DNA from: a virus
DNA: 32,771 bases
IMG/VR virus record: IMGVR_UViG_3300032167_000022
Strand: one strand, 5' to 3'
Each line of letters opens with the position of its first letter. Position 1 is the first letter of the stretch. This document shows, piece by piece, positions 4,936-32,771 of the stretch. The notes beneath the pieces were generated by a model. It saw nothing but the letters and a program-made list of their open reading frames with translations. It made no database searches and was not told where the DNA came from. The position numbers and the translations under genes are program-made.

Positions 4936-5994
4936 ATGGTTAAATTAGATTATTCTTTACAAACTCCAGAAGAAAGAGTTAAATTAGTAGAATAGATTTT
5001 AGCCGAGGACCCAAACCCCAGTGAAAAATATTCAGAAGTATTGGCTGACTATTTAATTCTTTGTATGGAGAAACAAGAAAGAAAAGAAAAGAAAATTCTT
5101 ACTGAAAACCGAATGGCGACAGTAAATAAAAGAGAAACTTCTTATGAAGGTCTTGTTTCCCAATTAGAAAATGGCGAAGATGGTATATATAATTTAATGT
5201 CAGATAATAAATAGTAGATTTTTCAACCAAAAGTAACAATAACAAAAAAAGATTTAGAAGAGATTCCTGATTTGCGCCAATTGCGCGACGCCATAGAAAT
5301 CTGGGAGGCAAAACTAAAAACCGCCGAAGGAAAAGATGCTTTTACTATTAAAAAAGCTTTAATTGAATTGCGGAAAGACCAATATATTATTAAAAATGCG
5401 TTCAGATGCCCTGTTGAATTAAATAAGATTACTCGCTCAAAATCTTATATTAAATTAGATGATACAACTTGCGAATTTGATGATGATGGATATCCTATTC
5501 CTTCTGGAATTTCATTAATGAATCCTGAAGTTGTTTCAGCAATTTTATGTAATTATTCAAAATTAAAGCAAGATAGTTGGGATTATTTTGAAGGAGATAC
5601 TTGGTATCTTATGAATGATTTTGACCATTTGAGTAATGTGGCTTTAAAAGAATATCCATTATATGAACGATTAGTTGATTTAAAAATTGATGGACTTTAG
5701 AATGCGGATATCCAAATAAAATTAGAAGAAGAATTTGGAATTAAACATAGTCTAGAATATATATCTAGTTTATGGCGTAATAAAATTCCTAAATTAATTG
5801 CGTCAACTGCGGAAGATGAATTTTTAGATTGGTATTATTTAGAAGTTGAAAAAGGAAAATATAAAAAATGTAGTAGATGCGGACAGATTAAATTAGCTCA
5901 TAATAAATATTTTAGCAAGAATAAAACAAGCCGAGATGGCTTTTACAGTATTTGTAAATGCTGCCGGAATGCTAAAACAAAGAAAGGAGAATAA
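4936..5994 (+). CDS. first gene of the plus-strand module, about 352 aa, 4 in-frame TAG; C-terminal zinc-binding motif CSRCGQIKLAHNKYFSKNKTSRDGFYSICKCC (zinc ribbon or HNH-like?)
   Basis: RBS GGAGG, ATG at 4936. Frame 1 is continuous to the TAA at 5992-5994 if TAG is read as sense; it includes a TAG TAG doublet. The ORF track fragment 5272..5700 is in the same frame. Confidence 0.5.
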
Positions 5995-5997
5995 TTT

Positions 5998-7191
5998 ATG
6001 CCTGACCATTATTATTGTGAAAAATGTAATAGAACATTAGCAGCTGAAGAATTTTATACTTCAAATAATTTAGAAAAATATCCTAATGATGGTAAGTTAA
6101 ATCAATGTAAAAAATGTATTACAATGCATGTAGATAATTGGAATCCAGACACTTATCTATGGATTTTACAAGAAGTTGATGTCCCATATGTTCCAGAAGA
6201 ATGGGATAAACTTATGACATCATATATTAAAGACAATAAAAAAATTACAGGTATGACTATTTTAGGTAGATATCTATCTAAAATGAAATTAAAACAATTT
6301 AGAGAATATCGTTGGAAAGACAACGAATTTATACAAAATTTAAAAAATAAAAAAATTGAAGAAACAATGAAACGTTAGGGATATAGTGCGGTTGAAATAG
6401 CAGAAGCTATTAATAAATCAACCTTTACTATGCCTGTGGAAGAATTGCGCGAACCAGAACCTAAAGCAATTGGCTCTCAAGTGGAAGAAGAACCTGAAGA
6501 TTATTTTGCTAAATAGTCTGGTGCTGATGACTCTTTCTTTGATGATGATTTAACAGAAGAAGATAGAACATATTTAAGATTAAAATGGGGAAAAGCATAT
6601 AAACCAGAAGAATGGATTAAACTAGAACAACTTTATAATGAAATGATGGAATCTTATGATATCCAAACCGCAGGTCATATTGATACTTTAAAATTAATTT
6701 GTAAAACCTCATTAAAAGCAAATCAATTAATTGATATTGGTGATGTAGAAGGATTCCAAAAAATGAGTAAAGTTTATGATAACTTAATGAAGAGTGGTAG
6801 ATTTACTGCGGCCTAGAATAAAGCAGAATCTGGTGAGTTTGTTGACTCTATTGCTGAACTAGTTGAAATATGTGAAAAAGAAGGTTTTATTCCTAGATTT
6901 TATACAGATACACCAATGGATAAAGTTGATGAAACTTTAGCTGATTTAAAAGGATATACACGCACATTAGTCACTGAAGAAATGAATTTAGGTAATTTAA
7001 TTGAAAGTGCTGTTAAAGAAATGGCTAAGCAAGAAGCAAAAGAAGAAGATGAAGATGTTGAAGATGAACTTGATTTAGATGAAATTGAATAGTTAAAAGA
7101 TGAAGATTTTGAAGATTATAATCAATTTTTAGATGAAGATATAGAAGCTGACGCGGATTTCTTAAAGCAATTAACTAATGAGGGTAATTAA
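5998..7191 (+). CDS. about 397-aa protein with an N-terminal Cys4 zinc ribbon (CEKC...CKKC) and an acidic C-terminus, immediately upstream of terminase; candidate small terminase subunit or DNA-binding protein
   Basis: RBS aaaggagaataatttATG. Frame 1 is continuous through 4 TAG to the TAA at 7189-7191. The assignment rests on position and the zinc ribbon only. Confidence 0.45.
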
Positions 7192-7193
7192 TT

Positions 7194-8936
7194 ATGGCTT
7201 TATAGGATTTATTAAATTTATCTGAACAAAGAAAAAAAATTGGTTTATCTGAAGAAAGAGTAAATGCTATTATTCCAATAGTGCGTCAATACATTGCCTT
7301 TTGGAGAGAATATCCTGATATGTTTGTGGATTTTCTAGTTAGAGGTAATAGAACTGAAATAAAAGATGGCGAATTTAAATTTTATTTTTATTAGCGAGTA
7401 TTTTTGCGTGCGGCAATGCGACATCAGTATCTGTACGCAGTATTTCCTCGCGCCTATTCAAAATCATTCTTATCAGTAATGGTGTTAATGTGTAAATGTA
7501 TTTTGTATCCTCGTTGCAAATTGTTTGTTACTTCTGGAGGTAAGGAACAAGCTGCTGGTATCATTAAAGAAAAAGTTCAAGAAATTTGTACTCTTATTCC
7601 TGCGTTTAAAAATGAAATAGACTGGACAAGAGGTAAAACTCTTGAAGGAAAAGATTATTGTAAATATGTTTTTACAAATGGTTCATATTTTGATAATATC
7701 GCAGCGAGAGAAAGCTCTCGTGGTAAACGTCGTCATGGTGGTTTAATTGAGGAATGTGTTGGTGTTGATGGTACTATTCTTTCTGAAGTAATTATTCCTA
7801 CAATGAACGTTTCTCGTATGTGTATGGATGGTTCAACGCATCCAGAAGAATAGTTAAATAAGTCATAGATTTATGTAACTACAGCTGGATGGAAAAATAC
7901 ATTCCCTTATGATAAGCTCATTCAATTACTAGTATGGCAAATTGTTAAACCAGAAAAATCTATGATACTTGGTGGTACATATCGTATTCCAGTATTAGTT
8001 AAATTACTTGATAAAAACTTTATCCGTGATTTAAAAATGGATGGTACATTTAATGAGATGTCTTTTGACCGTGAATATGAAAGTAAATGGTCTGGTTCGG
8101 TTGAAGATGCTTTCTTTAATTCAGAAGTTTTTGATAGAAATAGAATTTTAAAATAGCCTGAATATGAAGCATCAGGGCGCTCAAGCAAATCTAGTTTTTA
8201 TATATTATCTGCGGATGTTGGTCGTAAAGGTTGTGATACTGTAGTATGCGTATTTAAGGTAACACCATAGCCGCAAGGCTCTTCCATAAAAACTTTAGTA
8301 AATTTATTTACTTTATCAGATGCGCATTTTGAAGATTAGGCTATTAAATTAAAAAGATTATTTTATAAATTTAATGCTCGTAGATTAATAATTGATGCTA
8401 ATGGTATGGGTATTGGTTTATTAGATTATTTAGTAAAGCCTCAAATTGACCCAGATACTGGCGATACTTTCCCTGATTTTGGTGTTTATAATGATGAAGA
8501 AGGATATTATAAAAAATATAGAACAGTAAATTGCGAACAAGATGCTGTTTATCAAATAAAAGCAAATGCTCCTATAAATACTGAAGCTCATGCTAATGCG
8601 CGTTCTCAATTATCTTCTGGAAAAGTTAAAATGCTTATAGATGAACGTGTGGCAAAAGTTAAATTAATGGGAACAAAATTAGGTTAGAATATGAAGCCTG
8701 AAGAAAGGGCAGAATATTTAAAACCATTTACTTTAACTTCCATATTAAGAGAGGAATTAATGAACCTTCGTGAAGAAAATGAAGGTGTTAATATTATACT
8801 TAAATAGGTAAACCGAGGGGTTAGAAAAGATAAATTTTCTGCCTTTGAATATGGTCTATATTATATTAAACAAGAAGAAGATAATAAAAAGAAGAAAAAG
8901 AAATTTAATGCTAAAGAGTGGATGTTTTTAAGTTAA
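7194..8936 (+). CDS. terL: terminase large subunit (about 580 aa, 9 in-frame TAG)
   Basis: RBS gagggt. The translation gives FYFY*RVF aligned with the T4 gp17 Y-Q-R adenine-binding motif, a deviant Walker A (PRAYSKS), YVTTAGW (motif III), and nuclease-domain aspartates (ILSADVGRKG, LIIDANGMGIGL). It ends at a TAA. Confidence 0.8.
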
Positions 8937-8948
8937 GGGGGGAGATAA

Positions 8949-9305: not shown

Positions 9306-9322
9306 GTAAAGGAGGTGGAATT

Positions 9323-10936: not shown

Positions 10937-10947
10937 GGAGGATAATA

Positions 10948-12579
10948 ATGAAACATAAAAGTATTAAATTAGATACAGGAGTTGAATTAATTAATATCAC
11001 TCCTTTTAATCCATTAATTTCTAAATGTTAGATTAAGGTTTGTTATGTAAGTGATGAACCTAACAGAAATAAAAGTATAATTACTAAAGAAGTTGCTAAA
11101 TAGATTGCTAATAGTCTTCCAGGCAGTCCTATTGTTGGTTATTATAACGAACACAAAGAAGACTTTGAAGAACATAATAGAATTATTGAAATTTCAAATG
11201 GATAGTTTAAAATTAAAGATACAACTAGACCATATGGATTTGTTGATTTAGGAGCAAAAGTATGGTTTCAGAAATTTTTAGATGATGATACCACTGAAAG
11301 AGAATATTTAGTAACTGAAGGATGGCTGTGGACTGGTCAATATCCTGAATGCCAACGAGCAATTGATGAAGGAAATAATCATTCTATGGAATTAGATGAA
11401 GATTATTTAAATGCTTTTTGGACGAAAGATAGTAATGGAAAACCTTAGTTTTTTATTATAAATGAAGCAATTATTTCAAAACTTTGTATGTTAGGCGAGG
11501 ATAATGAACCTTGTTTTGAAGGTTCAAATATTACCGCGCCAGATTTAACATTCTCATATGGAGATAATTTTAAAGAACAACTTTTCTCTATGATGAATGA
11601 AATAAAAGAATTATTAAATGAAGGAGGAAAAGAAGTGTTTACTAGATACGCTGTAGAAATCGGTGACGCTTTATGGAGCAGTCTTTATAGCTACCTTGAA
11701 AAAACATATCCAGATGGACAGTATTGTTCTGTATATCGTATTGAAGGTATTTATGAAGAGAATGGTCAAAAGTTTACTATTCTTCAACATCGTGCTGATT
11801 TAAAATATTTCCGTTTAAATTTCTCTTTGGATGAAAGTAATGGATTTGTTCCATCAGACACTTTTGTTGAGGTAACAAAGACTTATACTCCATCTGAACA
11901 GCCTCAGTTCGCTTTGGCTGATATTGAAGCTTATGAAGCTGAATATGCCTCAAATCAGAAAAATTCTTCTGAAGAAGAGGACAAAAATGATAAAGATGAA
12001 ACAAACAATTCTGATAATAATTCAGAAGGTGAAAAAGCACCTGAAGATAATGAAACTTTCGCAAAGAAAGATGATGAAGAGGAAGAAAAATGTCCTAAAT
12101 GCGGCAAACCTGTAAAGGAATGCGAGTGCGAGGATGAAGAAGAAGAGGATAAGAAAAAGAAATATTCTCTTGAAGAAATTCCTGAATATGTAGAACTTCA
12201 AAATACTTATGCTCAATTAAAGAGTGATTATGATGCTCTTGTACTTGAAAAAGAAAATCTTGAAGCGCAAATTAAACCATTATCTGAATTTAAAGCTAAT
12301 GCTGATAAAAAAGAAAAAGAAGCAATGATTGCTAGTTTCTATATGCTTTCTGATGAAGATAAAGCTGATGTTATTACCAATATTGATACTTATTCTTTGG
12401 ATGAAATTGAAGCAAAGCTTGCTATTATTTGTGTTCGTAACAAGGTTAGTTTTAATCTTGAAGATGATAAAGGTGTTGAAACACCACCTACAACTTATGA
12501 CCTAAACAGTGATGATAATAATGATAATGTTCCTGCTTGGGTTAAACGTGCAATGTCTGTTGCAGAAAATATGAAATAA
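10948..12579 (+). CDS. prohead protease and/or scaffolding protein (about 543 aa: N-terminal domain with 5 TAG, then an acidic coiled-coil C-terminal half with no TAG and a CPKCGKPVKECEC motif)
   Basis: RBS ggaggataataATG. The frame is continuous to track ORF 11488..12579. Its position between portal and capsid and its acidic coiled-coil composition support the call. Confidence 0.45.
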
Positions 12580-12608
12580 TAATAAAAATTTAAAGGAGGA
12601 CATATATA

Positions 12609-13427
12609 ATGTATTCACCTGGAATGGAAAAATGGTTCAAGAATAATTATGCTAGCCAGGCAAAATACGTTCAGTTTGGTTTTGGTCAGGTTGAACCTAA
12701 CCATCTTTCTGCTCAACGTACCGGCCAGATTTATGGCCAATTGCCTGCGGCTGCTGATATTGCTATTTTAGAGCAAGGCCAGTTTGTAAAGTATGACTAT
12801 GCGAAGGGTGTAGTTAATTTTGAGGGTGCTGGCGAATGGATGCTCGTTTATAATGAAATTAAGTTATATCGTGAAAATCAGGCAGATTGCGAATTCGCAA
12901 TGTTAAAAGATAATTATCAGGCTCGTGTTTATAGCCCATTTGGTTACGGTCTTGATAAGGACGGCAATCAGGCTCCTGATATTGTCTGGGACAAACAGTC
13001 TCGTTATTATAATGGTGTTGATGCTGAAGGTAATGACTCCATTACTCTTAATGATAAGACTTATAAGTTTGATGATGTAACTGCTGATGGTACCACTATT
13101 ACTGCTGCTGATGGTACTGAAAAGCATATTTCTGCTGACCCTTATGAGATGAATCTCACTAGTGACCCTTATCATATTGAAGGTCCTTATAAGGAAGCTA
13201 TGATGCCCGAAGGCACCACAATGGTTCCTCGCGTATTTAAGACTAATGTTGGTGATATTTTCACTACTAACACTGTAAATGCTGACACTCTTGCTGTTGG
13301 TGATATTCTTACTCCTGGTGCTAAGGGTATCCTTGAGGTTGGCGAAGGCGATATGAAGTGGCAGGTTGTTAAAGTTTATACAATGCCTGATAGACAGCAA
13401 GGCGTTAAGATTATGCGTATTGCGTAA
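12609..13427 (+). CDS. capsid-associated structural protein (272 aa; decoration or auxiliary capsid protein?), TAG-free, higher GC and different codon usage
   Basis: RBS aaaggaggacatatataATG. Complete ORF; Thr/Gly/Asp-rich. Confidence 0.5.
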   Translation: MYSPGMEKWFKNNYASQAKYVQFGFGQVEPNHLSAQRTGQIYGQLPAAADIAILEQGQFVKYDYAKGVVNFEGAGEWMLVYNEIKLYRENQADCEFAMLKDNYQARVYSPFGYGLDKDGNQAPDIVWDKQSRYYNGVDAEGNDSITLNDKTYKFDDVTADGTTITAADGTEKHISADPYEMNLTSDPYHIEGPYKEAMMPEGTTMVPRVFKTNVGDIFTTNTVNADTLAVGDILTPGAKGILEVGEGDMKWQVVKVYTMPDRQQGVKIMRIA

Positions 13428-13444
13428 GAAAGGAGTGAAGAATA

Positions 13445-14560
13445 ATGGCTTTAGATAGACAAAATTTAGTTGATTTGATGAAGCAGGTAGCAAAAGCTGA
13501 CCCTTCCGCTCCTACTGCTTATGCGTATGGTGATAAGACTCTTAGCTATGATGCTTTAAATGAAACTTTGCGTCAAGAATTAAATGAACTTGCTGGTTCA
13601 TATTCTGACTATCGTGAAAATAAAAATCTTATTTTCGCAGTAATTGAAGAAACTCTTGATGAAGTTCTTCCTAAGAAGGTTGAACAGAAATATGAGCAGT
13701 TTGCTGAAGTTAAGCAGTTTGCTCAAGGTGATAAGCCTGCGTTTCGCCGCAAGGTTGGTTCCAGCAAACGTGCTAAGCAGTTTATTACTCGTGTTGGTTT
13801 AAATGGTATTTATGAAGTATTTAAGCTTGCTCCTAATACCGATGAAGTAATTGAAGTTCGTACTTCTGCTGTCGGTGGAGCTGCTCAAATCGGATTTGAG
13901 GAGTTCCTTGATGGTCGTGTAGACTTCGCAGAAGTTACTCGCATCGTTATGGAGGGTATTGATGAACTTATTTATAAGGAAATCGCGCATGCTCTTAAAG
14001 CTTCTGTAAATCAGTTACCACCAGCAAATAGAGTTGCTGCTCCTGGCTTTGATGAGGCTGCTTTTGACAAACTTCTTACTATTGCTAATGCTTATGGTAC
14101 ACCTACTATTTATTGTACTTATGAATTTGCTGTTCAGATGATTCCATAGGAAGCTTGGAGATATACTGAGGCAATGAAGACTGAGCTTTGGAATACTGGT
14201 CGTCTCGCTTCTTATAAGGGACATAAGGTAGTTATTCTTGAGCAAGGCTTTGAGGATGAAACTAATAGTCGCAAAGTTATTGACCCAGGTTATGTATGGA
14301 TTATTCCTGCTGGCGCTGATAGCAAGCCTGTAAAGGTTGCTTTTGAAGGTCAGACTCTTGTTGATGAATAGGTTAATAAGGACCGTTCTCGTGAAATTCA
14401 GGTTTATAAGAAGGTTGGCGTTGTTGCTATGTTGGCAAATAACATTTGCTGCTATGTTGATACTGCTCTTCTTGGTGACCTTGATACTTGGCATCTTGAT
14501 GGTGTAACCGGTAAGGTTGCTACTTATGATGGCCGTCTTGATGGTTCTTTAAAGGCGTAA
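13445..14560 (+). CDS. major capsid protein candidate (371 aa, only 2 TAG)
   Basis: RBS aaggagtgaagaataATG. It joins track ORFs 13445 and 14174 through TAG. A strong terminator follows it, as is typical for a major capsid gene. The residue pattern is reminiscent of HK97-fold capsid proteins, but this is not verified. Confidence 0.5.
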
Positions 14561-14596
14561 TTAATAATTTAAAATTAAATATATATAAATAAACAT

Positions 14597-14662: not shown

Positions 14663-15226
14663 ATGGCAAATAATAAAATATGTTTAGTAAAGAATAGAAG
14701 TGCTGGAATGGTTGTTTATAAAATTCCAGAAGATGGAGTTAGACGTGAATTTCAGCCCGGTGAAACAAAAAAGATTGCGTTTACAGAGTTGGAGAAATTA
14801 ACTTATCAACCTGGTGGACGCACACTTATTGCGAATTTTCTTCAAATTACTGATGAAAAAGTAACTAGTGATTTAAATGTTCATACAGAAGCTGAGTACT
14901 ATATGTCTGAAGAACAAGTTGCTGAATTGATTTTAAATGGTGAACTTGACGCTTTCCTTGATGCTTTAGATTATGCCCCTATTGGCGTAATTGATTTAAT
15001 TAAGCAATATGCTATTTCTCTTCCAATGAATGACTTACAGAAGAGAGATGCTTTATTGAAAAAGACTGGTTTTGATGTGACCAGAGCTCTTGAAAATTTG
15101 CGCAATGAACAGCAAGTTGATAATGCTAATAAGGAAAATGATGCGGCTCCAGCTACTACTTCTAGACGTAGAACAACTACAAATTATAAAGTCGTTAATA
15201 AAACAGAAGAAAGTAAAAGTGAGTAA
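14663..15226 (+). CDS. hypothetical structural protein (187 aa), TAG-free
   Basis: RBS aaaggagataaataaaATG. The track ORF start at 14639 is probably too early. Confidence 0.5.
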   Translation: MANNKICLVKNRSAGMVVYKIPEDGVRREFQPGETKKIAFTELEKLTYQPGGRTLIANFLQITDEKVTSDLNVHTEAEYYMSEEQVAELILNGELDAFLDALDYAPIGVIDLIKQYAISLPMNDLQKRDALLKKTGFDVTRALENLRNEQQVDNANKENDAAPATTSRRRTTTNYKVVNKTEESKSE

Positions 15227-15917: not shown

Positions 15918-16212
15918 ATATGGCTATTATGTGCCACAAGAAGTAATTGACAAAACTGTAAAAAGATTAACAAATTAGCTATGGAAATTAATTCCTATGC
16001 GTGAAAATAATGAAGACTGGCAAAAACAATTGGAAACTGTAATAGTAGAAATTGCGGGTTTAAATGAAATTTTCATTTGCTCGCATTTTTTATAGCTTCT
16101 TAGTAAGCTAGAAGGAATAAAAGTCCAAGATATAAATTTTGAGCTATATAGAAAAACTGTATTTGAATCAATCAGTTTACTTTAGGAGTTAAGCCGTGGA
16201 ATCAGGTTATGA
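15904..16212 (+). CDS. small protein (about 102 aa, 3 TAG), possible GTG start overlapping the upstream gene
   Basis: Frame 1 opens after the TGA at 15892. There is a GTG at 15904 with gaggga 5 nt upstream. It ends in TGA. The start is uncertain. Confidence 0.3.
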
Positions 16213-19891: not shown

Positions 19892-19894
19892 AAT

Positions 19895-21743: not shown

Positions 21744-24700
21744 ATGGCTCAATAGAGATTTGATTTTACATTAGGTATAAAAGCTGATACAAGTCAAGCC
21801 GAATAGAAAATGAATGAGTTGGCTAATTCTTTGAAAAAAATTGCGTCAAATCCTCCATCTTTATTAGATGATTAGGATTTAAAAGATGCTACGAAATCAG
21901 CGCAAGAATTAGAAAAACATTTGTCTAAAGCTGTAAATGTAAATACTGGTAAATTAGATTTATCAAAATTTTCAAAAAGTTTATCCTCTGCTGGATAGGA
22001 TTTAACATATTTTTAGAAAAATTTATCTAAACTTGGCGTAGAAGGTGAGTAGGCATTTTTAAAACTTGCTGAAAATATTGCTATGGCTGAAGTGCCAACA
22101 GTGCGTTTAAATAATCATTTAAAGAATTTTTTAGATGAATTAATTAAAGTCGGACGTTGGCAATTGAGTTCTAATATTATGCACGGACTGTAGGGAGCCA
22201 TTTAGACTGCTTATGGTTATGCGCAAGATTTAAATGAATCATTAACAAACATTAGAATTGTTACTGGTTAGACTACAGATGAAATGGCTAAATTTGCGTT
22301 AAGAGCAAATGATGCGGCAAAAGCTTTAAGTACAACTACTACTAACTATACAGATGCGGCATTAATCTTCTATCAGCAAGGTCTTGCGGAAGATTAGGTT
22401 GAAGAGCGCACAAACACAACAATTAAAATGGCTAATGCTACTGGTGAAAATGTTACAAAGATATCTGACCAATTAACTGCGGTTTGGAATAACTTTGATA
22501 ATGGTACCAAGCCATTGGAATATTATGCTGATGTTATGACTGCGTTAGGTGCGGCAACTGCTTCTAGTACTGATGAAATCGCTGAAGGTATTGAAAAGTT
22601 TGCTTCAATTTCTGAAATGATTGGTTTAAGTTATGAGTATGCGGCTTCCGCGCTTACGACCGTAACAGATGTCACTCGTCAAAGTGCCGATGTAGTAGGT
22701 ACTGCATTTAAAACGATTTTCGCACGTATTTAGGGTTTAAAACTTGGTGATACATTAGAAGATGGTACATCTTTAAATAAATACTCATAGGCTCTTGCTT
22801 CTGTTGGTATTTCTATTTTTGATTAGAATCAACAATTAAAAGATATGGATGATATCCTTGATGAGATGGGCGCTAAATGGTCATTACTTAGTAGAGACTA
22901 GCAAGCTGCGCTCGCGCAAACTGTTGCTGGCGTAAGACAGTACAATCAGCTTGTATCTCTTATGAATAACTGGGATTTCTTTAAATAGAATGTAAATGTA
23001 GCAAAAGGTTCTGAAGGAACTTTAACTGAACAATCAGCTATTTATGAAGAAAGCTGGGAAGCATCTTTAAAGAGAGTTAGAGCTTCTGCTGAAGGTATTT
23101 ATGATAGTTTAATTGATGAAGAATTTTTTATTAAGATTAATGATATTTTTGCTAAATTATTAGAAGGAATTAATGGAGCAATAGATGGTATTGGCGGATT
23201 TGAAGGAATTTTAAAAACTTTAGGTAGTGTATTTATGTCTTATTTTGCTTCTAAAATGCCGAAAGCATTATCAGGCATAAGCAATACTTTTAGTATTATT
23301 ACTGGAAAAGCTTTAAGAGATACTTAGAAAATACAATAGGAAAGTATTAATAGTTTATCTAAAATGCGTCCTGATGCTACTAATGCTGAAAAAATTTAGC
23401 AAGAAGGATTGAAAAAAGTTGCTATTTTAAAGCGTGAATTAACTAATATTTCTAATAAATTAACTGAAGAAGAAAAAGAAGAAAATTAGAATAGAATATA
23501 GCAAACCGCAGATATTTATGCTAATGCTGCTGCCATTGAAAAAGAAGCGGCAGAATTAAGAAAACTTAATGAAGAAAAAATTAAAAGTTCTTCTAATCAA
23601 ATTACAAACGAAGCTTTCGGATTTAGAGAAACTATTGCTGAAGATCAAAATCAAATAAATACATTAAGTTAGATATAGAATAGAACAAAATTAGATGATT
23701 CAAGATTAGATAAAGCTACTTCACGAGTTAATGAATTAACTGAGCAATTTTTTAAATTAAAAGATGCTATGGATGAAGTTATAGAATCTAAACAAATAGC
23801 TTTTGATAAAAAAGATTGGGAAGAATTTTCTAATATGGGAGAATTATTAGATTTTGATAGTAGAGAATCTAAAGAGTATTTCCAATATGTTGGAGAAGGA
23901 ATTGATTAGTTAAAAGCAAAATATATTGATTTTAGAAAACAAGAGTAGTAGTATGAATATTTAAAAAATAAAATAGATATTAATAAAGCAGCTTGGACTG
24001 CTCCTGATTTTAATTTATCTTTGGATGAAGCAAAAAATTCTATTTCACAATATTTAAGACAAATAGATGAATTAAAAAAATAGGGATTTGTTTAGTTAGA
24101 TATAGATACAACAGAGTTGTAGTCAAAATTGAAATCAACTGATGTAACTGTTGAGGATTTACAAAAATCATTTATTTCTTTTTTAAATAATTTATCAAAT
24201 AAAGCTTCAAAAACTTCTACAAGTTTTTCAAAAGATGGCGATAAGATTCATAGTGCATTATTAAAAATTTTAACTCCTTTAATGGGTGATAAAAGTCAAG
24301 CTGAAAAAGCAATTGAAGGTCTGCGCACAAAATTAGCAGAATTAACAGAAGAAGAAATGGATTCTGTTTTACGCACAACTGGAATGTTATCGGAAAGAGT
24401 AGATGAACTTCCAAAACATGCTTATAAAGCCTCAGAAGCTATAATGGAACTTGGAAGTGCTTTAATGTCTTTAAATTCTTTTATGAATTCTGTTAGTAGT
24501 ACTACTCAAATACTTGAAGATAATACTGCTTCTATGGCTGATAAAATAGGAGCTGTTGTTGGAGCAGCTTCTACTGGAATTTTTACTTTTAATTAGACTA
24601 AATAGGCAATGATTGCTGTTGTTGGAGCTGTAAGTAAATTTGCGGGAGCGGCAACTACAGCCGCCAAAAGTGGAGCTGCTTTATCGGGAATTTTAAGTAA

Positions 24701-27700
24701 AGGTTTAGCTGCTATTGGTGGCCCTACAACTTTAATTATTGCAGGTATTACTGCAGCAATAATGGGGTTAGTTGGCTTTTTAGGTACTAAATCAGCTGAA
24801 GCTGAAAAAGAATTAGAAGAAATTGAAAGAAAAACAGAAGAGCTTAATAATAAAATTTCAGAACAGTATACAGAAATTGAAACTAATAATGAATTAATTG
24901 AGTCTTATGAAAAATTATTAAATACTTATAAACTTACAGGTGAAGGAAAAGATTAGCTAGATATAAAAGCTAAAGAATTAGCTGAGGCTTTTAGAATTGA
25001 AGGATCGGCTTTAGCAACTTTAACTGGTTAGTATGCTGATTATGAAAATTTATTAAATAAAGCTAAAAATAAATCTTATAATAATGTTAATGAACAAATT
25101 AATTTAGTCCAAAATAAAAGAAATAGTAGTATAAAAGAATTTAATGATATTATTCAAGCTAAAAAGCATACTGATGATGTTGGGCATATAATGAGTAATC
25201 TTTCTTAGATTTCTTTATTTTCACTTAATGATGTTAATCGTAATTATGGCACTAAAAATGAATCTTCAAACGGAGATATGGCTGCTTTTAGAATTATTGA
25301 TGATTATTTAACAAAAAATAATTTAGGAGAAATTGGTAATAAAAATAGAAAAAATGGTACTATAATGACAGCTGAATTATTAGTTTCAGATATGGAAGAA
25401 GCTGTTAAGTTATTTGAATAGTTAGAAAATGAATTATTACCACAAGTAAAAGCTGTTAGTAACGGTCAAGAGACTAAAGAATTTGAAGAAAAAATTAAAA
25501 GTGCTAGAGAAGTTTTGTCAAAATATGTGGCATCAGATTAGGAATTAAAAGGTTTAGAATTAGCTTATAGTTTTAAAGATAAAGATTTTGAATCATTTGA
25601 AGAATATAATAATTTAATAATTGAAACAGAAAATCGTTTAAAGAGCTGGGGATTTAGTACAAGTGAAATTGAATCTACAATTAATACTGCAATAAATTTA
25701 ATTCCAGATTTAAAAATAAAACAATATGAAGAGTTAAGAGAAGTTGTAGAAACTTTATTATCTAATGGAGCTGGTAAAGGCATTACTGAAGGATTTTTAG
25801 GGCAATTATTTAGTGATGCTGAAAAAGGTGTTGGAATTTATGATAAATTAACTCTCGCTTCTTTAAATTGGTCAGTTTTAACAATTGATAATTGGGAGAA
25901 AGCTGCTAGTGCAGTTTAGAATTATACAAATGCAATTAAAGATGCCACTAATGCTCAAGAATTAAGGGATAGTGCTAAAAATGCTTTATCTTTATTAGAA
26001 GATGGTTTAACTGAAAAAGAAGGCGAAGAGTTAAAAGGACTTATAGATTGGGGTAATGAAGAAAAAGGTATAGTTGAATATACTGAATTCTTAAAAATGA
26101 ACCTTGAAGAGCAAAAGTCCTATTTGGAAGATTTTGCTAATATTAATTTATTTGAAAGATGGACCGATGAAATTCAAACTTCTAAAGATTTAATTGAATA
26201 GCAAAAATTACAGTTAGAAGATACAAAAAAAATATTAAAAAATGATTTATTATCTGTTTTAGATAGTGATGGTAGTTATCAGCAAGGTAATTACAGAAAA
26301 GTTTATGAATTATATGATTTAGATAAATGGTTTGAAAGTGAACAAGCTTTTGTTGATGCAATTTCTAACCCTAAAATGTTAGATAAATTGCTTAATAATC
26401 AAGATTTTCTTATTACTATTGGCATTGATGAAGCTGAACTTATTCAAAATGCTGAAAATACTATTAATTCTGCTGAAGAATCTTTAGAATTAGAATTAAA
26501 TACTACTCCATCTGAACATTCTATAAAATATTTATTAGATGAAATTGAATCTCTTGAAACAGAATTAACAGTTAAAGCAAATACTTTAGAAGCAGATGAA
26601 ATCCTTGATGAATTATTAGATAGACAATATCAATTAGATGTCCATGTTAATGCCGTTTTAGGTCAAGAACTTGATAAAAATTTAGAAAAGATAAAAAGTT
26701 TTAGTGATACTTTATCTCTAATTGGGGAAAATTATTAGGTTAGTGCAGATAATCTTCATGCTTTAGAAGCAGTAATTCCTGGAATTACTCAAAAATTAAC
26801 TGTAAGTCAAGAAGGATTAATTTAGCTTCATAAAACTGAGGCAATTGCGGCAATTGAAAATACTAAAGCAAATACAATTAGTTCAAAAACAAAAATTTAG
26901 AATCGTATTGATGAATTAAATGTAACAAAAACAGCTGCTGAAGCTGCTTAGAAAGCAATTCAAGCTGAAATAGATAAAAACTTAAAAGATGAAGAGACTC
27001 GTACTAATGCTGTTAATAAAATGGCTGAAATTAGAGCCAATTATCAAAAAGCAACTAATGAAGGTGTAGCAGCAGATTATGCTAAAACATCAGCAGAAAT
27101 GTCAGAAGATAGTGATGACAATATGGAAAATGATGTTGAAAATGCTAGTATTTCCACAGCTGCTTATGTAGAAAAATTCATTGCTTTACATGCTAATACT
27201 GAAAACTATAAACAAGAATATTTAAAATTTGTTGAAACTATGCTTTTAGCTGATTAGGCTGCTTTAGCTGGAGATCCTGTAGCTTTAAGTGCTTTATTAG
27301 GTAATGTATAGGCTGTAAAAGATTTAGGTGGTACTGCAGAATAGATTGCTTAGGCAGAATTAGTAGCTAATGAAATGAAATTAACGGCTTCTGAAAAAGG
27401 GCAAGTTATCTAGTATAATGCTGCTATTGTTTAGAATAAAATCAATGATGAAGGCAAATTTGATTTTTCTGGTACGAGAAATGATGAAACTGGAAAAACA
27501 ATAAAAGAATCTGAAGAAACGAAGAGAAAAACAGAAGATTATTTAAATAATTTAGCAAAAGAATATGCAAAATTAAATGAAGATACTGCTAACGAATTTT
27601 TACAAAATCACTATGATTATTATGGTTCAATTATAACTTCTAGTGATGAAGCAATTGCTAAATTAAATATTGATTTAGCTGAAGAAACGGCAGCTCTTAA

Positions 27701-30700
27701 TTCTTTAGATTAGATGATAGTAAATATAAAAAATGGAAAAAGTGCTACCGGAACCTCTTCACAATCTTCTGAAACTTTACAAGAAACAGTTAAAGAACAT
27801 AACCCTTATCAAAATGTTGATAATACTATTGAAGCTATTAATCTAAAATTAGAAGAATAGAAAGCTATAACTGAAAATTTAGAAAAAGGCACTGAAGAAC
27901 ATTTAGCATCTTTAGAAAATGAGCGCTTATTAACAGCAGAAATTGGTAAATATCAACAAGAGAAACTTAATATTGCTGAAAATGAATTAGCTACTTTAGA
28001 ATAGAAATTATCTCAATTTGGAGCAGAATATGACCCATTAACTAGAAAAATTGTTAATTATGATGAAATAGTTAATGCTAAAGCAAGAGAAGTTGATAAA
28101 TTAAATAAAGAACTTGCGGCCGCTTCTGGTCCTGAAAAAGAAAGATTATAGGAGCAAGTAAATGCTGCTGAAAAGCTTTATAATAATGTTAAAGAGTTAG
28201 CTGATGAACATAGCAATACTGTTGATATTATTAATGATACTACTACTGCTTTAAGAGAAAATGGTTAGGCTATTGAAGATAATATAAAAACACAGGAAGA
28301 GTTTAATAAAGAATTACAAAAAGCAAGAAAAGAAGTAGAAAAAACAAATAAAGAAATTCAAGAAACCATTGATAATCTTAAAGATGAAGTAGATATTTAC
28401 CATCAATTAAATCATGAATTAGATAAGTAGAATGAAGAATTAGATAGATTAAGTAAATTAAAAGATTCTTTATATGGTGAAAATCATATAAAAGCAGCTA
28501 AATAGGAATTAGAAGTTGTAAAACAAACATAGAAAACATATGAAGATTTACTTGATACTACATTAGATGACCTTGAAAATGCTATGGGTAAAGCTACTGT
28601 ACATTTTGATACTAAAATTGTATATGATGAAGATGGAGCAATTTTAAATTATCAAGAGTTACAGGAAGAATTAGTTCGTAAAGCTGAAACAGCTGCTAAT
28701 GATTTAACAGCTGCTAACATTCATTCTTTAACACTGCCTGAAGAATAGCGCGAGGAATATTTAAAACCATATCAAGATGCTTATGATAATGCTTTAGCTG
28801 CTTAGAAAGATGGATAGGATGCTATTAATAAAGTTCATGATTTAAGAGATTAGGCTTATAATTATGGACAGCAAGCAAGAGATAGTTTCTATAAAGGTTT
28901 AGACCTTTAGGCTGAATTATGGGATTATAAATTTAATCTTTAGATTGAAATCAATGATAATGATTTGGAAGAATTAGAAAAGCAATTAGAAAAGATTGAA
29001 GATAAAGGCTATGAAATGTCTGAAGCAATAGCTTTAATTAATACAGATTTTAGAAGTCTTTATGAAAATAATTATACATATTTACAAAGTGAAATTGATA
29101 ATTTATAGAGTATGTATAGTGCTGGAGAAATTACAGAAGAAGCATATATAGAAAGATTAAAGAAAATCCAAGAAGAAGCCAAAGAAGCAGCGAATGAACT
29201 TGAAGAACTTGATGAAAAAGTATATGAATATTATGGCATTACATTAGAGAAAGCTAATGAAGAATTAGAATTCTATATCAAGTAGATGGAACATGCAACT
29301 GAGGTATTAGACCACTATAAAAATATTATTGAATTGGTTAATGGTGAATACGATTATGAGCGTTTAGGTATCGTTCTTGAGGGTTAGGCACATAATCTAT
29401 AGAATGAAATGGAAGTTGCTGTTAAATGGTTTGAGACCTTAGATGCGGAAAAAGCTGCAATTGAAGCTGAGTTAGCTAATCCTGGCATATCTGATGAATA
29501 GCGTGAAAAATTAAAAGAAGCTTATGAACCTATTTATGAAGCTTGGATGGAAGCACATGATGAAATGTTATCTAAAACTACTGAATGGGTTGAAGCAACT
29601 AAAGCAGTTATGGAAAATACTATGGCAAAAGCTGCTAGAGATTTAGAGATGTCTTTCACAGATGGCGTAGGTTTTGATGCCTTAAACGATTCTATGGATA
29701 GATTAAATGAATATTCTGATATTTATTTAACTAAAACTAATCAAATTTATGAAGTTCAGAAAATGATGCGTACTGCTCAACAAGCCGCAGATAAAACCGA
29801 CAATGCTTCATCTAAACAGAGATTGAAAGCATTTATGGACGAACTGGGAGATTTACAAGAGAAAAATAAATTAAGTAATCTTGAATTAGAAATTGCGCAA
29901 AAGAAATATGATTTACTTGAAGCACAAATTGCTCTTGAAGAAGCTCAAAATGCTAAATCTACAGTTAGATTACAAAGAGATTCTGAAGGTAATTTTGGTT
30001 ATGTATATACTGCTAATTAGGAACAAGTTGCTGAAGCTGAAACGCAAGTATATGAAGCAGAGCAAGAGTTATATAATTTAGCATTAGAATCTGCCAATGA
30101 TTACGCATAGAAGCGTATTGAATTGCAGCAATCATTATATGACGATTTAGTTGAGTTAGAAGAAAATCGTGTTGCTGGTATGTATGCAACTGAAGAAGAA
30201 TATAATAAAGCTCGTGAATAGCTGATTAAAGAATATAATGATTTATTTATTGCTTATGAGGATTAGTATAATTTAGCAATTGAAGCTGATGGTTATTTAA
30301 GAGTTTAGATTGCTGAAAGACATAATAAACAACAATTATCTGATACTGTTGGATTTTTAGATGAATCCACATAGAATATTCTTGAAACAACTACATTACA
30401 GCAAGAAACATGGATTACTCATTTTGATAATATTTTAGAAAAAACTCGTGGATGGCGTAATGATACCAATAGTGAATATGATTAGTCTGCTATTGATGCT
30501 TCTGAATGGTTAACAGCAACGCAAGGATATTTGAAAACTTGTGAAGATTCTTATAAAACTTGGTAGACTACAGTTACTGAACAAAATAAATATGTTTAGG
30601 AAGCTTTAGTTCATACTCAGGGAGAAACTGATAAATTAACTACTGAAAGTGATGAATTAAAAACAGCTTTAATTGGTGAAGATGGAAATGGTGGTCTTGT

Positions 30701-31664
30701 AAAAGCTCTTGGAGATGAATTATAGAAAGTTAGAGAGTTAATTACAGAATATGCTTTACAAAGTAATGGATTAGATATTTTAGCTGAAAAATATGAATCT
30801 TTAAGAGGTCAAATTGATAGTTTAATTTCATCAATTAATAGTATTCCTGATTGCGCTGAATGGTGTGTAAAAACATATGGAGATGGCGGAATGGGAGGAG
30901 GAGATACTGGAGGTAATTTCCCAGTTGATCCTGACCCAGTTTTTTCATCTGATGATGATGATAGTAAATTTGGTTGTGGTGCTCATACTGCTACAACAGC
31001 AGATGATATTAAAGATACATCAATAACATCAAATACTAATAAAAATTATGCTGTAGAATCTGCTAAATATTGGAAAGGTCAACAAAGTATTGGAGAAGCT
31101 GCTGCTAATTTAGGAATTTCTGTTAGTGAAATGAATAAAATAAATATGGCTTTAGCGGGTTAGACTGAAAATTGGAATGGTACTAAAATTTTCACTGAAG
31201 AATTTGCTGATTAGAATTTATCTGATGATTATGAAAGAACTCAAAAAAGTGGATTTGATGAAATTATTAATAATCAACAATCTGCTGCTAATGTAAATAA
31301 ATGGCTTATAGATGAAGGTATAGCAACTGGTGCCACAGGCATGTATACTGGGGCTTGGGGTCCAGAAGGTAGATTAGCGTTATTGCATGAAAAAGAATTA
31401 GTATTAAATAAAGAAGATACTAAAAATTTCTTACATGCAACCGATATTTTAAGAAGTATATCTGATGTAATAGATTTACAAGCTATGTCAAATCAATTTA
31501 ATACTTTATCTGCTAGTATCTATTCTGGTTCTTCTGGAATATTAGAACAATCAGTTCATATAGAAGCTAATTTCCCGAATGTATCTGATAGGAATGAAAT
31601 TGAAGAAGCGTTTAATAATCTTATTAATACAGCTTCTCAATATGCGAATCGTAAAACTATATAA
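21744..31664 (+). CDS. tail tape measure protein, about 3306 aa, with on the order of 100 in-frame TAG and no in-frame TAA or TGA in the parts I translated
   Basis: RBS aaaggagtaattatatattATG. Frame 0 links nine track ORF fragments (22428, 24129, 24609, 26376, 27021, 29547, 30891, 31341). It carries the TP901-type tape measure core motif (GISIFD*NQQLKDMDDILDEMGAKWSLLSRD*QAALAQTVAGVRQYNQLVSLMNNW), a Gly/Ala-rich membrane segment (MIAVVGAVSKFAGAATTAAKSGAALSGILSKGLAAIGGPTTLIIAGITAAIMGLVGFLG), and long coiled-coil stretches. It ends at a TAA followed by a terminator. Confidence 0.85.
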
Positions 31665-31669
31665 ATTAT

Positions 31670-31702
31670 AGGGGTCTGATAATTCAGACCCCTTATTTTT
31701 AT
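31670..31702 (+). terminator. rho-independent terminator after the tape measure gene
   Basis: Stem aggggtctga/tcagacccct with a 4-nt loop, followed by tatttttat. Confidence 0.7.
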
Positions 31703-31719
31703 TGGACTAGATTTATTAG

Positions 31720-31748
31720 TTGACTTTAGCAAAAAATTAAGTTATAAT
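31720..31748 (+). promoter_or_regulatory. plus-strand promoter (TTGACT-17-TATAAT) for the distal tail genes
   Basis: TTGACT at 31720-31725, TATAAT at 31743-31748, spacer 17 nt. An RBS gaaaggaga and an ATG follow at 31776. Confidence 0.6.
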
Positions 31749-31775
31749 AGAATATGGAGAGAAAGGAGATTGGTT

Positions 31776-32771
31776 ATGTCAAATAAAAATCTTGGAGAAC
31801 AATTGTGTGAAGCTGTTGATATAATTGCTAAAGCAAGAGTTGGCAGTGTAGCATATGACCAAACTATTATATGTACAATAACTAATGATACTTTAAAAGA
31901 TAAAGGTCAATATAAAGTATCAAATGGTTCAGCTGAATTTGATGCTTATACTTCTAATACAGAATATCGTTCAGGAGACAATGTATATGTATCTATTCCA
32001 AGAAATGATTGGAATGAACAAAAATTTATTATAGGTAAATATACTAATAAAGATACTGGTGAATATTTTGTATATCAAAATCCTTTTAATACATTAGTTG
32101 ATATTACTGGCAATGTAATTAATGCTAATGTTCCTACTAATGAAAGTGGATTAGTAGCTAATAATCCTAATGAAGAATATATTATTTTATGGTCTTATAA
32201 TATAAATAATGAGGCTTTACGAAAAGAAAATGGTAATATTTTTAGTGGATATACTAGATTAGGATTACAAGCATCTTTTTAGTCACTTATAAATCCTTTT
32301 AGTTATAAAGAATATGAAAAAAATGATGATGGCAGTTTAAAACGCGATGAAGATGGATTATTAATAGTAAAGAATTAGGCTAATTCAAAAATTATTGATG
32401 GTGAATATGGTTTGCGGCTTCGTTTAAAAGTAACTCAAAACTAGACACTTAGTGAAGTTAAAAATGATGGTGCCGCAAATAAAGAGGTAATTTTTTATCT
32501 AAATACCGCAGATATGAATGGTAATCCATATAATTTTAATAATTTTTTCTAGCAAGAAAAAGTTTTTGATGTTTCTGAATATGAATCAATTCATTCAATT
32601 TAGATTGAATTTTATCAAATTAAAGATTCTTTCATTGATGCTTCTGGATATAAATTACCTTATTTGGATGAATGGGGAAATATAACTGCTCCAAATTTAT
32701 ATGTTAAAGATGTATATTTATGTCTTGGATATGATACTAGCGAGTTTGATGATGAAATGATTAAAGTATAT
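31776..32771 (+). CDS. distal tail protein (Dit-like) candidate, 5' partial, running off the window end; in-frame TAG present
   Basis: The ORF continues in frame 0 through TAG at 32280, 32376, 32442, 32550 and 32601. The assignment rests on its position directly after the tape measure gene. Confidence 0.4.

What the first reader, a model, noticed from the sequence alone, without database searches (positions are those of the whole stretch)
4936..32771. Amber (TAG) codon reassigned to sense throughout the plus-strand structural module
Read with the standard code, the 28 kb from 4936 onward breaks into short ORFs. But the codon periodicity, the reading frame, the ribosome-binding sites and the conserved protein motifs all continue straight through in-frame TAG triplets. 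The terminase large subunit contains 9 TAG. Nine ORF fragments in the same frame join into a 3306-codon tape measure gene with about 100 TAG and no in-frame TAA or TGA in the stretches I translated. All 18 plus-strand genes terminate in TAA (17) or TGA (1), never TAG. This is the signature of a stop-codon-recoded phage. The system implied is a phage-encoded decoding apparatus (a suppressor tRNA-CUA, possibly with release-factor manipulation) that must sit elsewhere in the genome, because I could not find a tRNA in this window.
Basis: partly seen in the sequence, partly recalled or inferred. Interest (0 to 1): 0.9.

Follow-up and report, generated by a model that had tools for sequence, protein, structure and literature searches.

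The report
Phage late genes read TAG as glutamine
This is the structural-gene block of a large gut phage that reads the stop codon TAG as glutamine, using its own suppressor tRNA found 42 kb away in the same genome; it is a real but already well-described kind of phage recoding.

Summary
With TAA and TGA as the only stops, + strand 4936-32771 becomes 20 tightly packed genes with AGGAGG ribosome-binding sites. They hold 155 in-frame TAG and no TAG terminators. The terminase has 9 TAG. The 3306-codon tape measure has 78, not about 100.

TAG means Gln. Of the 61 TAGs in 12 genes, 59 align to a residue in a standard-code relative (terminase 94% identical), and 37 of those align to CAA/CAG. At invariant-Gln terminase columns, TAG alternates only with CAA/CAG.

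The predicted decoder was found. I walked through contigs that overlap the window. The genome is about 186.5 kb and carries a 23-tRNA array about 31-43 kb left of the window. The array includes a tRNA(CUA) with its own host-type promoter. A candidate HDV-like (theta-type) ribozyme abuts its 3' end.

The minus-strand early genes in the window have no in-frame TAG, and 2 of 10 end in TAG. This fits the published model in which early genes use the standard code and late genes use code 15.

The phage is SPbeta-like and a distant relative of phAss-1, so it is a new member of a known kind. Recoding is not confined to the + strand. No release-factor gene was seen in the roughly 100 kb inspected. An unusual long extra arm on the suppressor tRNA is the only possibly new detail.

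The parts
4936..5994 (+). g1, first gene of the recoded operon; PHROG 5767 ('sigma factor'); 4 in-frame TAG; TAA stop
5998..7191 (+). g2, YonG-like; 4 TAG; TAA stop
7194..8936 (+). Terminase large subunit (YonF-like); 9 TAG. All 9 align to CAA (7) or CAG (2) in the standard-code relatives L002-L004
8949..9305 (+). Small ORF between terminase and portal; 2 TAG; TAA stop
   Evidence: a 118-aa ortholog is called in L002-L004
9323..10936 (+). Portal protein (PHROG 2739, E 3e-85 across residues 70-535); 9 TAG; TTG start
10948..12579 (+). g5, YonD-like; 4 TAG
12609..13427 (+). g6, TAG-free, GC 0.40, prefers CAG; probably a highly expressed head protein
13445..14560 (+). g7, YonB-like (probable major head protein); 2 TAG; GC 0.40
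14663..15226 (+). g8, TAG-free
15249..15917 (+). g9; 6 TAG
15895..16212 (+). Small open frame with 3 TAG; the only TGA-terminated gene of the module
16196..17269 (+). g10; 9 TAG; GTG start
17299..17883 (+). g11, YomW-like; 6 TAG
17883..18608 (+). g12, YomV-like; 8 TAG
18642..19676 (+). g13, tail tube (YomU_Tube); TAG-free; GC 0.40
19682..19891 (+). Small 69-aa gene; TAG-free
19952..21061 (+). g14; 5 TAG
21108..21632 (+). g15, YomO-like; 1 TAG; preceded by a sigma-A-type promoter at 21050
21744..31664 (+). Tape measure protein, 3306 codons (PF10145 PhageMin_Tail on the identical ENA-called protein); 78 TAG; no TAA/TGA
31776..32771 (+). 5' part of a gene whose open frame spans 1816 codons and ends at TGA, window-equivalent 37133; 5 TAG in the window, 28 in all
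75..4797 (-). Ten small early genes in standard code: 0 in-frame TAG in 838 codons; two end in TAG (785-1102, 4250-4417). Seven are preceded by a consensus TTGACA-N17-TGnTATAAT promoter
4832..4907 (.). Divergent sigma-A-type promoters (minus strand 4860-4832; plus strand 4879-4907), at the point where strand and genetic code both switch. GC skew changes sign here

Best explanation
The window is the head-and-tail gene block of a roughly 186.5 kb SPbeta-like tailed phage, probably infecting Bacillota (an inference; no host was identified). Its late genes are written in genetic code 15, where TAG means glutamine.

Shown:
- TAG is a sense codon in these genes. It makes up 36% of all Gln codons.
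- It corresponds to Gln in homologs.
- It is never used as a terminator in the module.
- The same genome carries a tRNA with a CUA anticodon. This tRNA sits in a 23-tRNA array and has its own consensus host-type (sigma-A, extended -10) promoter.
- The early genes next to the module contain no TAG in frame, and some end in TAG.

Inferred:
- After infection, the host RNA polymerase transcribes the early genes and the tRNA array.
- The suppressor tRNA has Gln-type features: a weak 1:72 pair, G73, and a D-arm like that of the phAss-1 tRNA-Gln(CUG). Host enzymes are presumed to charge it with Gln.
- It then competes with release factor 1 at UAG, so the TAG-containing late genes can be translated in full only once it has accumulated.
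- Its 3' end is probably released by an adjoining HDV-like (theta-type) self-cleaving ribozyme and then completed by CCA addition, because no CCA is encoded.
- The most abundant virion proteins avoid TAG, which suggests that suppression is less efficient than normal decoding.
For: ORF structure.

TAG = Gln:
- All 9 terminase TAGs align to CAA/CAG in L002-L004, whose own terminase ends in TAG.
- Of the 61 TAGs in 12 genes, 59 align to a residue and 37 of those are Gln. The next best residue is Lys with 5. Genuine Gln is conserved at 76%, and background Gln is 3.7%.
- At invariant-Gln columns of 35 terminases, TAG alternates only with CAA/CAG.
- Gln is also the maximum-likelihood assignment in the poorly conserved tape measure.

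Suppressor tRNA:
- ARAGORN finds it at L119 13903-13997, anticodon CUA.
- It scores 53.7 bits against the Rfam tRNA model, whose threshold is 29.
- A promoter lies at L119 13794.

Same genome:
- ENA contig k141_2926279 holds both window 8641-29676 (99.995% identical) and the region to the left.
- The loci L104, L111, L115 and L119 come from overlapping ranges of the same or linked contigs, and L115 and L119 are 100% identical over 10,254 bases.
- One 186,545-base contig carries marker proteins from both sides of the window.

Early genes.

Ribozyme candidate.

Published precedent: bioRxiv 10.1101/2021.08.26.457843, PMC10607447, PMC9523058, PMC10879173.
Against: - There is no proteomic or tRNA-charging evidence; Gln rests on alignments.
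- The suppressor tRNA has a long extra arm. In bacteria this is typical of Ser, Leu and Tyr tRNAs, not Gln.
- The timing model is untested. The tRNA has an early-type promoter, g1 also has a host-type promoter, some genes on the other strand carry TAG, and the only candidate cell-wall enzyme seen (L119 8249-9109) is TAG-free.
- About 85 kb of the genome was not inspected.
Confidence: 0.9

Rival explanations
1. TAG is a sense codon but encodes Ser, Leu or Tyr. The phage tRNA(CUA) has a class-II-like long extra arm, and that arm is the main identity element for SerRS and is characteristic of Leu and Tyr tRNAs in bacteria.
For: The tRNA is 95 nt with an extra stem-loop. That stem covaries across 13 related tRNA(CUA) sequences. 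It has G73, as tRNA-Ser does.
Against: Opposite the 59 aligned TAG positions, the standard-code relative has Ser 0 times, Leu 0 times and Tyr twice, against Gln 37 times. At invariant-Gln terminase columns, TAG alternates only with CAA/CAG. The D-arm is a 4-bp class-I type and closely resembles phAss-1 tRNA-Gln(CUG). The 1:72 pair is weak, as in tRNA-Gln.
Confidence: 0.04
2. The TAGs are genuine stops. The module would then be a decayed, non-functional phage remnant, or an assembly or sequencing artefact.
For: Standard-code gene callers (JGI) fragment the region into dozens of short ORFs.
Against: - Only TAG interrupts the frames, 155 times. TAA and TGA never do.
- Each of three window proteins looked up occurs on 22-24 contigs read from JGI and ENA assemblies, and six loci from different samples are 100% identical to the window.
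- TAG sits at conserved Gln sites.
- The genome encodes a tRNA(CUA).
- Most of the relatives fetched show the same pattern (56 of the 80 IMG/VR relatives; most of the 48 MAG-contig relatives).
Confidence: 0.01
3. The host, not the phage, supplies the decoding. Either the bacterial host itself reads TAG as Gln, or it carries the suppressor, and the phage merely matches its host's code.
For: No host was identified. All genome-collection hits are phage-sized contigs binned into MAGs.
Against: - Early phage genes and close relatives use TAG as a terminator.
- The phage carries its own tRNA(CUA) with its own promoter.
- From my own knowledge, no bacterium with TAG = Gln is known. The published work places such phages in standard-code hosts (bioRxiv 10.1101/2021.08.26.457843).
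Confidence: 0.03

Closest known systems
Code-15 (TAG to Gln) alternatively coded gut phages: Borges et al. (bioRxiv 10.1101/2021.08.26.457843), Peters et al. (PMC9523058)
   Same: - In-frame TAG is concentrated in structural genes.
- Early genes are compatible with the standard code.
- The phage encodes a tRNA(CUA).
- Close standard-code relatives exist, and code state is patchy within the clade.
- The genome is large, with a probable Bacillota host, like their 'Agate'-type clades.
   Different: - I did not place this phage in any of their named clades.
- No release-factor gene was seen in the part inspected.
- The only candidate cell-wall enzyme seen is TAG-free, so their lysis-gene bias was not observed here.
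phAss-1 / proposed Phassvirus group (Babkin et al. 2023, PMC10607447; GenBank OQ749652)
   Same: - An SPbeta/EF1-like siphovirus layout with a + strand structural block.
- A tape measure of about 3150-3300 aa.
- A large tRNA array on the opposite strand.
- TAG = Gln.
- The same unusual long-arm tRNA(CUA) family.
   Different: - Terminase is only 42% identical, and there is no nucleotide-level match.
- The genome is about 186.5 kb against 136 kb.
- phAss-1 has three tRNA(CUA) genes with encoded CCA and no ribozyme candidate. This phage has (so far) one, without CCA and with a ribozyme candidate.
- It is not a member of that genus.
Theta (minimal HDV-like) ribozymes next to phage suppressor tRNAs (Kienbeck et al. 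2024, PMC10879173)
   Same: The candidate starts 1 nt after the tRNA(CUA) end. It has the same P1/J/P2/P3/L3/P1.1/L4/J4-2 segmentation, including G1·U, the CC...GG P1.1 pairing and the CTAA catalytic junction. The tRNA lacks CCA.
   Different: One mismatch in the 3-bp P3 helix. The sequence was not found in the part of their supplementary lists that is held as text. There is no Rfam hit. Cleavage is untested.
Standard-code sister phages (ENA contigs behind L002-L004) and cultured Enterococcus phages H1, VRE9 and EF1
   Same: Same gene order. Terminase is 94% (L002-L004) or 49% (H1) identical.
   Different: They use TAG as a terminator (4 of 12 orthologs in L003) and have CAA/CAG where the window has TAG.

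Membership tests
Code-15 (TAG = Gln) recoded phages | Gene fragmentation under code 11 is relieved only by reading TAG as sense | tested here: met
   Long-ORF coverage rises from 0.21 to 0.91 with TAG read through. Reading through TGA or TAA gives no gain.
Code-15 (TAG = Gln) recoded phages | In-frame TAG aligns with Gln in homologs that use the standard code | tested here: met
   37 of 59 aligned TAG positions are Gln codons. All 9 terminase TAGs are. Invariant-Gln columns confirm it.
Code-15 (TAG = Gln) recoded phages | TAG is not used as a terminator in the recoded genes | tested here: met
   0 of 19 complete + strand genes end in TAG. Orthologs in the standard-code relative do so in 4 of 12 genes.
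Code-15 (TAG = Gln) recoded phages | The phage encodes a suppressor tRNA with a CUA anticodon | tested here: met
   L119 13903-13997, found by ARAGORN and by the Rfam tRNA model at 53.7 bits. It is linked to the window through overlapping contigs.
Code-15 (TAG = Gln) recoded phages | Gln is actually inserted at UAG (protein-level evidence) | not testable with these tools
   This needs metaproteomics of the source samples or of purified virions.
SPbeta-like siphoviruses (Yon/Yom structural module) | Collinear YonG, YonF (terminase), YonD, YonB, YomW, YomV, YomU (tube), YomO and a long tape measure | tested here: met
   Precomputed Pfam hits on proteins identical to the window's (L006/L007) and on relatives. 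tblastn finds YonF-annotated terminases.
Phassvirus (phAss-1 genus, PMC10607447) | Genus-level nucleotide similarity to phAss-1 (members share 80-86% identity) | tested here: not met
   No blastn match to OQ749652. Terminase is 42% identical at the protein level.
Theta / minimal HDV-like ribozymes | Nested P1-P2-P3-P1.1 fold with G1·U, a catalytic C in J4/2, and a cleavage site within 5 nt of a tRNA 3' end | tested here: inconclusive
   The descriptor match at L119 13998-14051 is the only hit in 6.5 Mb, with 0 hits in shuffles. P3 has one mismatch. There is no covariation data and no Rfam hit.
tRNA-Pyl (the label ARAGORN gives to any CUA tRNA) | Pyl-type architecture. From my own knowledge: a small D-loop without G18G19, a 3-nt variable loop and an elongated anticodon stem | tested here: not met
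   This tRNA has a normal D-loop with GG, a TTCAAAT T-loop and a variable region of about 27 nt. The label is only ARAGORN's naming convention.
ArfA (alternative ribosome-rescue factor A, PF03889) | A score at or above the Pfam gathering threshold, and the C-terminal KGKGSYxRK motif | tested here: inconclusive
   24.6 bits against a cut-off of 25.5. The motif KGKGSYKRK is present. PDB ArfA chains match at E of about 0.6-0.7.

The most novel reading that the evidence does not exclude
The decoder is not an ordinary point-mutated tRNA-Gln. It belongs to a conserved, apparently undescribed family of Gln-type tRNA(CUA) molecules 89-95 nt long. These carry a covarying extra arm with a conserved YUGA loop, and they occur in at least 20 large phage contigs, including phAss-1. 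In this lineage the tRNA is coupled to a cis HDV-like ribozyme, and an ArfA-like peptide sits in the same array. The extra arm would then be a functional adaptation, for example an identity or anti-determinant element, or a help in competing with RF1. The whole would form a dedicated phage code-switch module.
Probability: 0.25. Interest if true: 0.55.

Novelty: new member of a known kind. Interest (0 to 1): 0.35.

Why it matters
It adds a well-documented case of a phage that rewrites the stop codon TAG. It comes with an unusually clean natural control: a sister lineage with a 94%-identical terminase has CAA/CAG at every TAG site and still uses TAG as a stop.

There is also a practical lesson. 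Standard-code pipelines shred this genome. JGI gene calls fragment it, the exact phage is absent from IMG/VR, and two PHROG families of 'unknown function' look like terminase fragments. Such phages are therefore under-counted and mis-annotated unless table 15 is tried.

The phenomenon itself, its amino acid and its suppressor-tRNA mechanism are already published, so it does not open a new question. The long-arm suppressor tRNA family is the only lead that might be new.

Tried and rejected
- Pfam on the window proteins gave nothing useful.
- An exact DNA pattern from the window's end found nothing in IMG/VR.
- A scan of JGI metagenome contigs with an early protein found no relative.
- No tRNA was found in the window, in the 10 kb either side, or in 80 IMG/VR loci around the tube gene. 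The array was reached only after four further walking steps.
- The Rfam searches found only tRNAs at the gathering threshold, and at E-values up to 1 only weak sub-threshold matches and no ribozyme.
- My first, loose HDV descriptor gave only false positives, so I replaced it with a strict one.
- The ribozyme sequence is not in the held part of the theta-ribozyme supplements.
- The genome-contig scan gave only MAG-binned phage contigs, so no host was identified.
- The last protein search did not return the exact flank proteins, which ended the walk.
- I considered and rejected Pyl, Ser/Leu/Tyr decoding, pseudogenisation and a recoded host (see the rival explanations).


Full report
**Observation.** The window has 31% GC. 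GC skew changes sign at about 4.9 kb. Left of that point lie ten small minus-strand genes. Right of it, everything is on the + strand.

Under the standard code, + strand ORFs of at least 200 codons cover only 21% of 8642-29676. Reading TAG through raises this to 91%. Reading TGA or TAA through gives nothing.

With TAA and TGA as the only stops, the region 4936-32771 resolves into 17 large genes. Each has an AGGAGG-type ribosome-binding site 6-10 nt before its start. Three small ORFs fill the gaps.

- The terminase (7194-8936) has 9 TAG.
- The tape measure (21744-31664) is 3306 codons without TAA or TGA, but it has 78 TAG, not about 100.
- The 19 complete genes end in TAA (18) or TGA (1), never TAG.
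- Altogether 150 TAG lie in 8777 codons of the large genes. That is 36% of all Gln-equivalent codons (213 CAA, 58 CAG).

**Homology.** PHROG profiles match across the TAGs: portal at E 3e-85 over residues 70-535, and a sigma-factor-annotated family for g1.

A database search with the terminase found thousands of relatives, many of them full length. In an alignment of 21 of these, every TAG position is a nearly invariant Gln. Those proteins might themselves have been called with table 15, so I fetched DNA. Loci L002-L004 (terminase 94% identical, about 78% nucleotide identity over the module) use the standard code. Their terminase ends in TAG, and it has CAA (7) or CAG (2) at all nine window TAG positions.

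Across 12 orthologous genes, the TAGs were masked as X during alignment. Of the 59 aligned TAGs:
- 37 face Gln codons;
- the runner-up is Lys, with 5;
- Ser and Leu never occur.

For comparison, genuine Gln is conserved at 76%, and background Gln is 3.7%.

In 35 terminases from MAG contigs, invariant-Gln columns contain only TAG, CAA and CAG. Column 396, for example, has 18 TAG, 8 CAG and 9 CAA.

In the poorly conserved tape measure (25% identity to distant standard-code relatives), Gln is still the maximum-likelihood assignment.

TAG therefore means Gln, which is table 15.

**What phage this is.** Proteins identical to the window's carry Pfam YonD, YonB, YomW, YomV, YomU (tube), YomO and PhageMin_Tail domains. 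The relatives also carry YonG. tblastn finds YonF-type terminases of Enterococcus phages H1, VRE9 and EF1 (49%), Geobacillus E3, phAss-1 (42%), and SPbeta-like Bacillus and Lactococcus phages.

So this is an SPbeta-like siphovirus. The strong Shine-Dalgarno sites, the sigma-A promoters and these relatives point to a Bacillota host. No isolate host was found: all 48 genome-collection hits are phage-sized contigs binned into MAGs, mostly with Bacillota labels.

The same sequence (100% identical) occurs in several JGI and ENA metagenome assemblies. The exact phage is not in IMG/VR.

**Finding the decoder.** No tRNA lies in the window, in the 10 kb on either side, or around the structural module of 80 IMG/VR relatives.

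In phAss-1 the tRNA array lies 25-37 kb beyond the divergence point, on the opposite strand. Guided by that, I walked left through overlapping contigs.

Five lines of evidence link the left-hand region to the window:
- ENA contig k141_2926279 carries both window 8641-29676 and the region to the left.
- The loci of the walk come from overlapping ranges of the same or linked contigs, and L119 and L115 are 100% identical over 10,254 bases.
- One 186,545-base contig carries markers from both sides of the window.
- In the window's own sample, two contigs sum to 186,790 bases.
- L119 comes from that same sample.

L119 holds 23 tRNAs at about -31 to -43.5 kb in window-equivalent coordinates, on the window's minus strand. 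Among them is a tRNA with anticodon CUA at 13903-13997. It scores 53.7 bits on the Rfam tRNA model, whose threshold is 29. A consensus promoter, TTGACA-N17-TATGTTATAAT, lies about 80 nt upstream.

**The suppressor tRNA is unusual.** It is 95 nt long with an extra stem-loop in the variable region.

Its other features are Gln-like: A1·C72, G73, a 4-bp D-stem, and a D-arm nearly identical to that of phAss-1 tRNA-Gln(CUG).

A pattern scan of IMG/VR found 19 more contigs (50-233 kb) with homologous tRNA(CUA) genes. All of them have the long arm. The pattern would also have accepted this anticodon arm and T arm with a short variable loop, and none turned up. RNAalifold predicts the extra stem, with compensatory changes. 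In about half of the contigs, a second tRNA(CUA) of 75-78 nt sits next to the long one.

I found no mention of such an arm in the recoding papers I searched.

**A ribozyme candidate follows the tRNA.** One nucleotide after the tRNA begins a 54-nt element. It matches the published segmentation of theta (minimal HDV-like) ribozymes (PMC10879173, supplementary file 5):

GGATATA|AT|ACTTCC|TCC|T|CC|TCG|TGG|TATATCT|GG|ATTGCG|CTAAAT|GGAAGT

It has the G1·U pair, the P1.1 CC/GG pairing and the CTAA junction. P3 has one mismatch.

A strict descriptor hits only this site in 6.5 Mb of held sequence and never in shuffles. The tRNA encodes no CCA, as is usual for theta-associated tRNAs. Rfam does not detect the element, and cleavage is untested.

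**Code use along the genome.** The ten early genes in the window (75-4797, minus strand) have no in-frame TAG in 838 codons, and two of them end in TAG.

Twenty-one near-perfect sigma-A promoters with an extended -10 lie upstream of the small minus-strand genes between -9.9 kb and +3 kb, at least one per gene.

Further left, some genes on that strand do contain TAG. One 176-aa protein has 8. A glycosyltransferase, a YunG-like protein and an HTH protein appear affected too, judging from the shorter standard-code calls. The reassignment is therefore not confined to the + strand block.

To the right, the recoded tail module continues to at least +52 kb.

Within the module, the genes with GC 0.40 and a preference for CAG have 0-2 TAG. 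These are g6, g7 (YonB-like) and the tail tube; g8 (GC 0.34) is also TAG-free. This fits avoidance of a poorly decoded codon in the most abundant proteins.

g1 is the sigma-factor-annotated first gene. It has a host-type promoter (4879-4907) and 4 TAG, so its translation would depend on the suppressor. That step is inference only.

**Comparison with what is known.** The phenomenon, the amino acid and the mechanism are all published:
- Borges et al. (bioRxiv 10.1101/2021.08.26.457843) describe code-15 phages with standard-code early genes, suppressor tRNAs and close standard-code relatives.
- Peters et al. (PMC9523058) gave proteomic proof in crAss-like phages.
- Babkin et al. (PMC10607447) described TAG = Gln in phAss-1 and related EF1-like genomes, the same broad assemblage as this phage.

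Here too, code state is patchy:
- 56 of 80 IMG/VR relatives are TAG-recoded, about 20 use the standard code, and 2 may be TGA-recoded.
- In a terminase tree, standard and recoded lineages interleave.

This phage is not a Phassvirus (42% terminase identity, no nucleotide match). It is a new member of a known kind.

**Not found.** No release-factor or aminoacyl-tRNA-synthetase gene appears in the roughly 100 kb inspected (about 54% of the genome).

A 49-aa protein inside the tRNA array carries the ArfA motif KGKGSYKRK and scores 24.6 bits against the Pfam cut-off of 25.5. ArfA recruits RF2 to stalled ribosomes. A link to the code switch is only speculation.

**Verdict.** Both the observation and the interpretation are correct, and the predicted decoder exists. 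The interest is moderate to low because the system is already described. The long-arm suppressor tRNA family, with its adjoining ribozyme candidate, is the one lead worth following.

Noticed in passing
L119 13903-13997 (about 42.4 kb left of window position 1, window minus strand); homologs in L124-L142 and phAss-1 (L101 12442): The suppressor tRNA(CUA) belongs to a family of 89-95 nt tRNAs. They have a covarying extra stem-loop (loop YUGA) in the variable region but Gln-like acceptor and D-arm features. In about half of the contigs a second tRNA(CUA) of 75-78 nt sits beside the long one. I found no description of this arm in the recoding papers searched.
   Followed up: partly
L119 13998-14051 (identical copy at L120 7541-7594): A 54-nt candidate theta-type (minimal HDV-like) self-cleaving ribozyme starts 1 nt after the suppressor tRNA, which lacks an encoded CCA. 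It is the only hit of a strict descriptor in 6.5 Mb and is not detected by Rfam. None of the other 22 tRNAs in the array has one.
   Followed up: partly
L119 4862-5011 (also L115 14764-14913), inside the tRNA array: A 49-aa protein with the ArfA motif KGKGSYKRK. It scores 24.6 bits on Pfam ArfA, just under the 25.5 cut-off. A ribosome-rescue factor that recruits RF2 would be an interesting companion to TAG recoding, but the match is weak.
   Followed up: partly
window minus strand, -35 boxes at 368, 718, 1180, 1580, 2147, 2575, 2948; also 4832-4860 (-), 4879-4907 (+) and 21050 (+); continuing to -9.9 kb in L092: A repeated, near-perfect sigma-A promoter with an extended -10 (TTGACAAAT-N-TGTGGTATAATATATAC) lies upstream of the small early genes, at least one per gene. 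There are 21 copies in 12.5 kb. A second, AT-rich version recurs through the tRNA array (12 copies in L119).
   Followed up: partly
window 12609-13427, 13445-14560, 18642-19676: These three structural genes stand out with GC 0.40 (against 0.25-0.31 for their neighbours), a preference for CAG over CAA, and 0-2 TAG. This reflects either translational selection in the most abundant virion proteins or recent import from a standard-code relative.
   Followed up: no
window 7194-8936 against PHROGs 15503, 24618 and 26582: The terminase matches three 'unknown function' PHROG families whose profiles (245, 230 and 363 positions) each cover only part of it. These families were probably built from TAG-fragmented terminase gene calls of recoded phages.
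   Followed up: no
L110 18741-19271 and neighbours (window-equivalent about -16 to -29 kb, window minus strand): Genes outside the structural block and on the opposite strand also carry in-frame TAG. One 176-aa protein has 8. A glycosyltransferase, a YunG-like protein and an HTH protein are affected too, judging from their shorter JGI calls.
   Followed up: partly
window position about 1 (ends of the contigs behind L093, L094 and L095): Several independent assemblies break within about 100 bases of the window's first base. The overlapping strain (L092) differs at 21 of 1380 positions there. The cause is probably the repeated promoters or a strain-variable early region.
   Followed up: no
L068 and L080 (IMG/VR relatives of the tube gene): In these two relatives, long-ORF coverage rises when TGA rather than TAG is read through (0.72 to 0.88, and 0.60 to 0.78). 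They may be TGA-recoded members of the same family.
   Followed up: no
window 2968-3783: An 800-base stretch among the early genes has no convincing ORF on either strand. It contains only a low-complexity 92-codon frame at 3373-3651.
   Followed up: no
L092 10424-11113 (window-equivalent about -9.0 to -9.7 kb): Three tandem consensus promoters sit within 700 bases and are followed by short, GC-rich, non-coding stretches. These may be small RNAs. They are not tRNAs according to ARAGORN.
   Followed up: no
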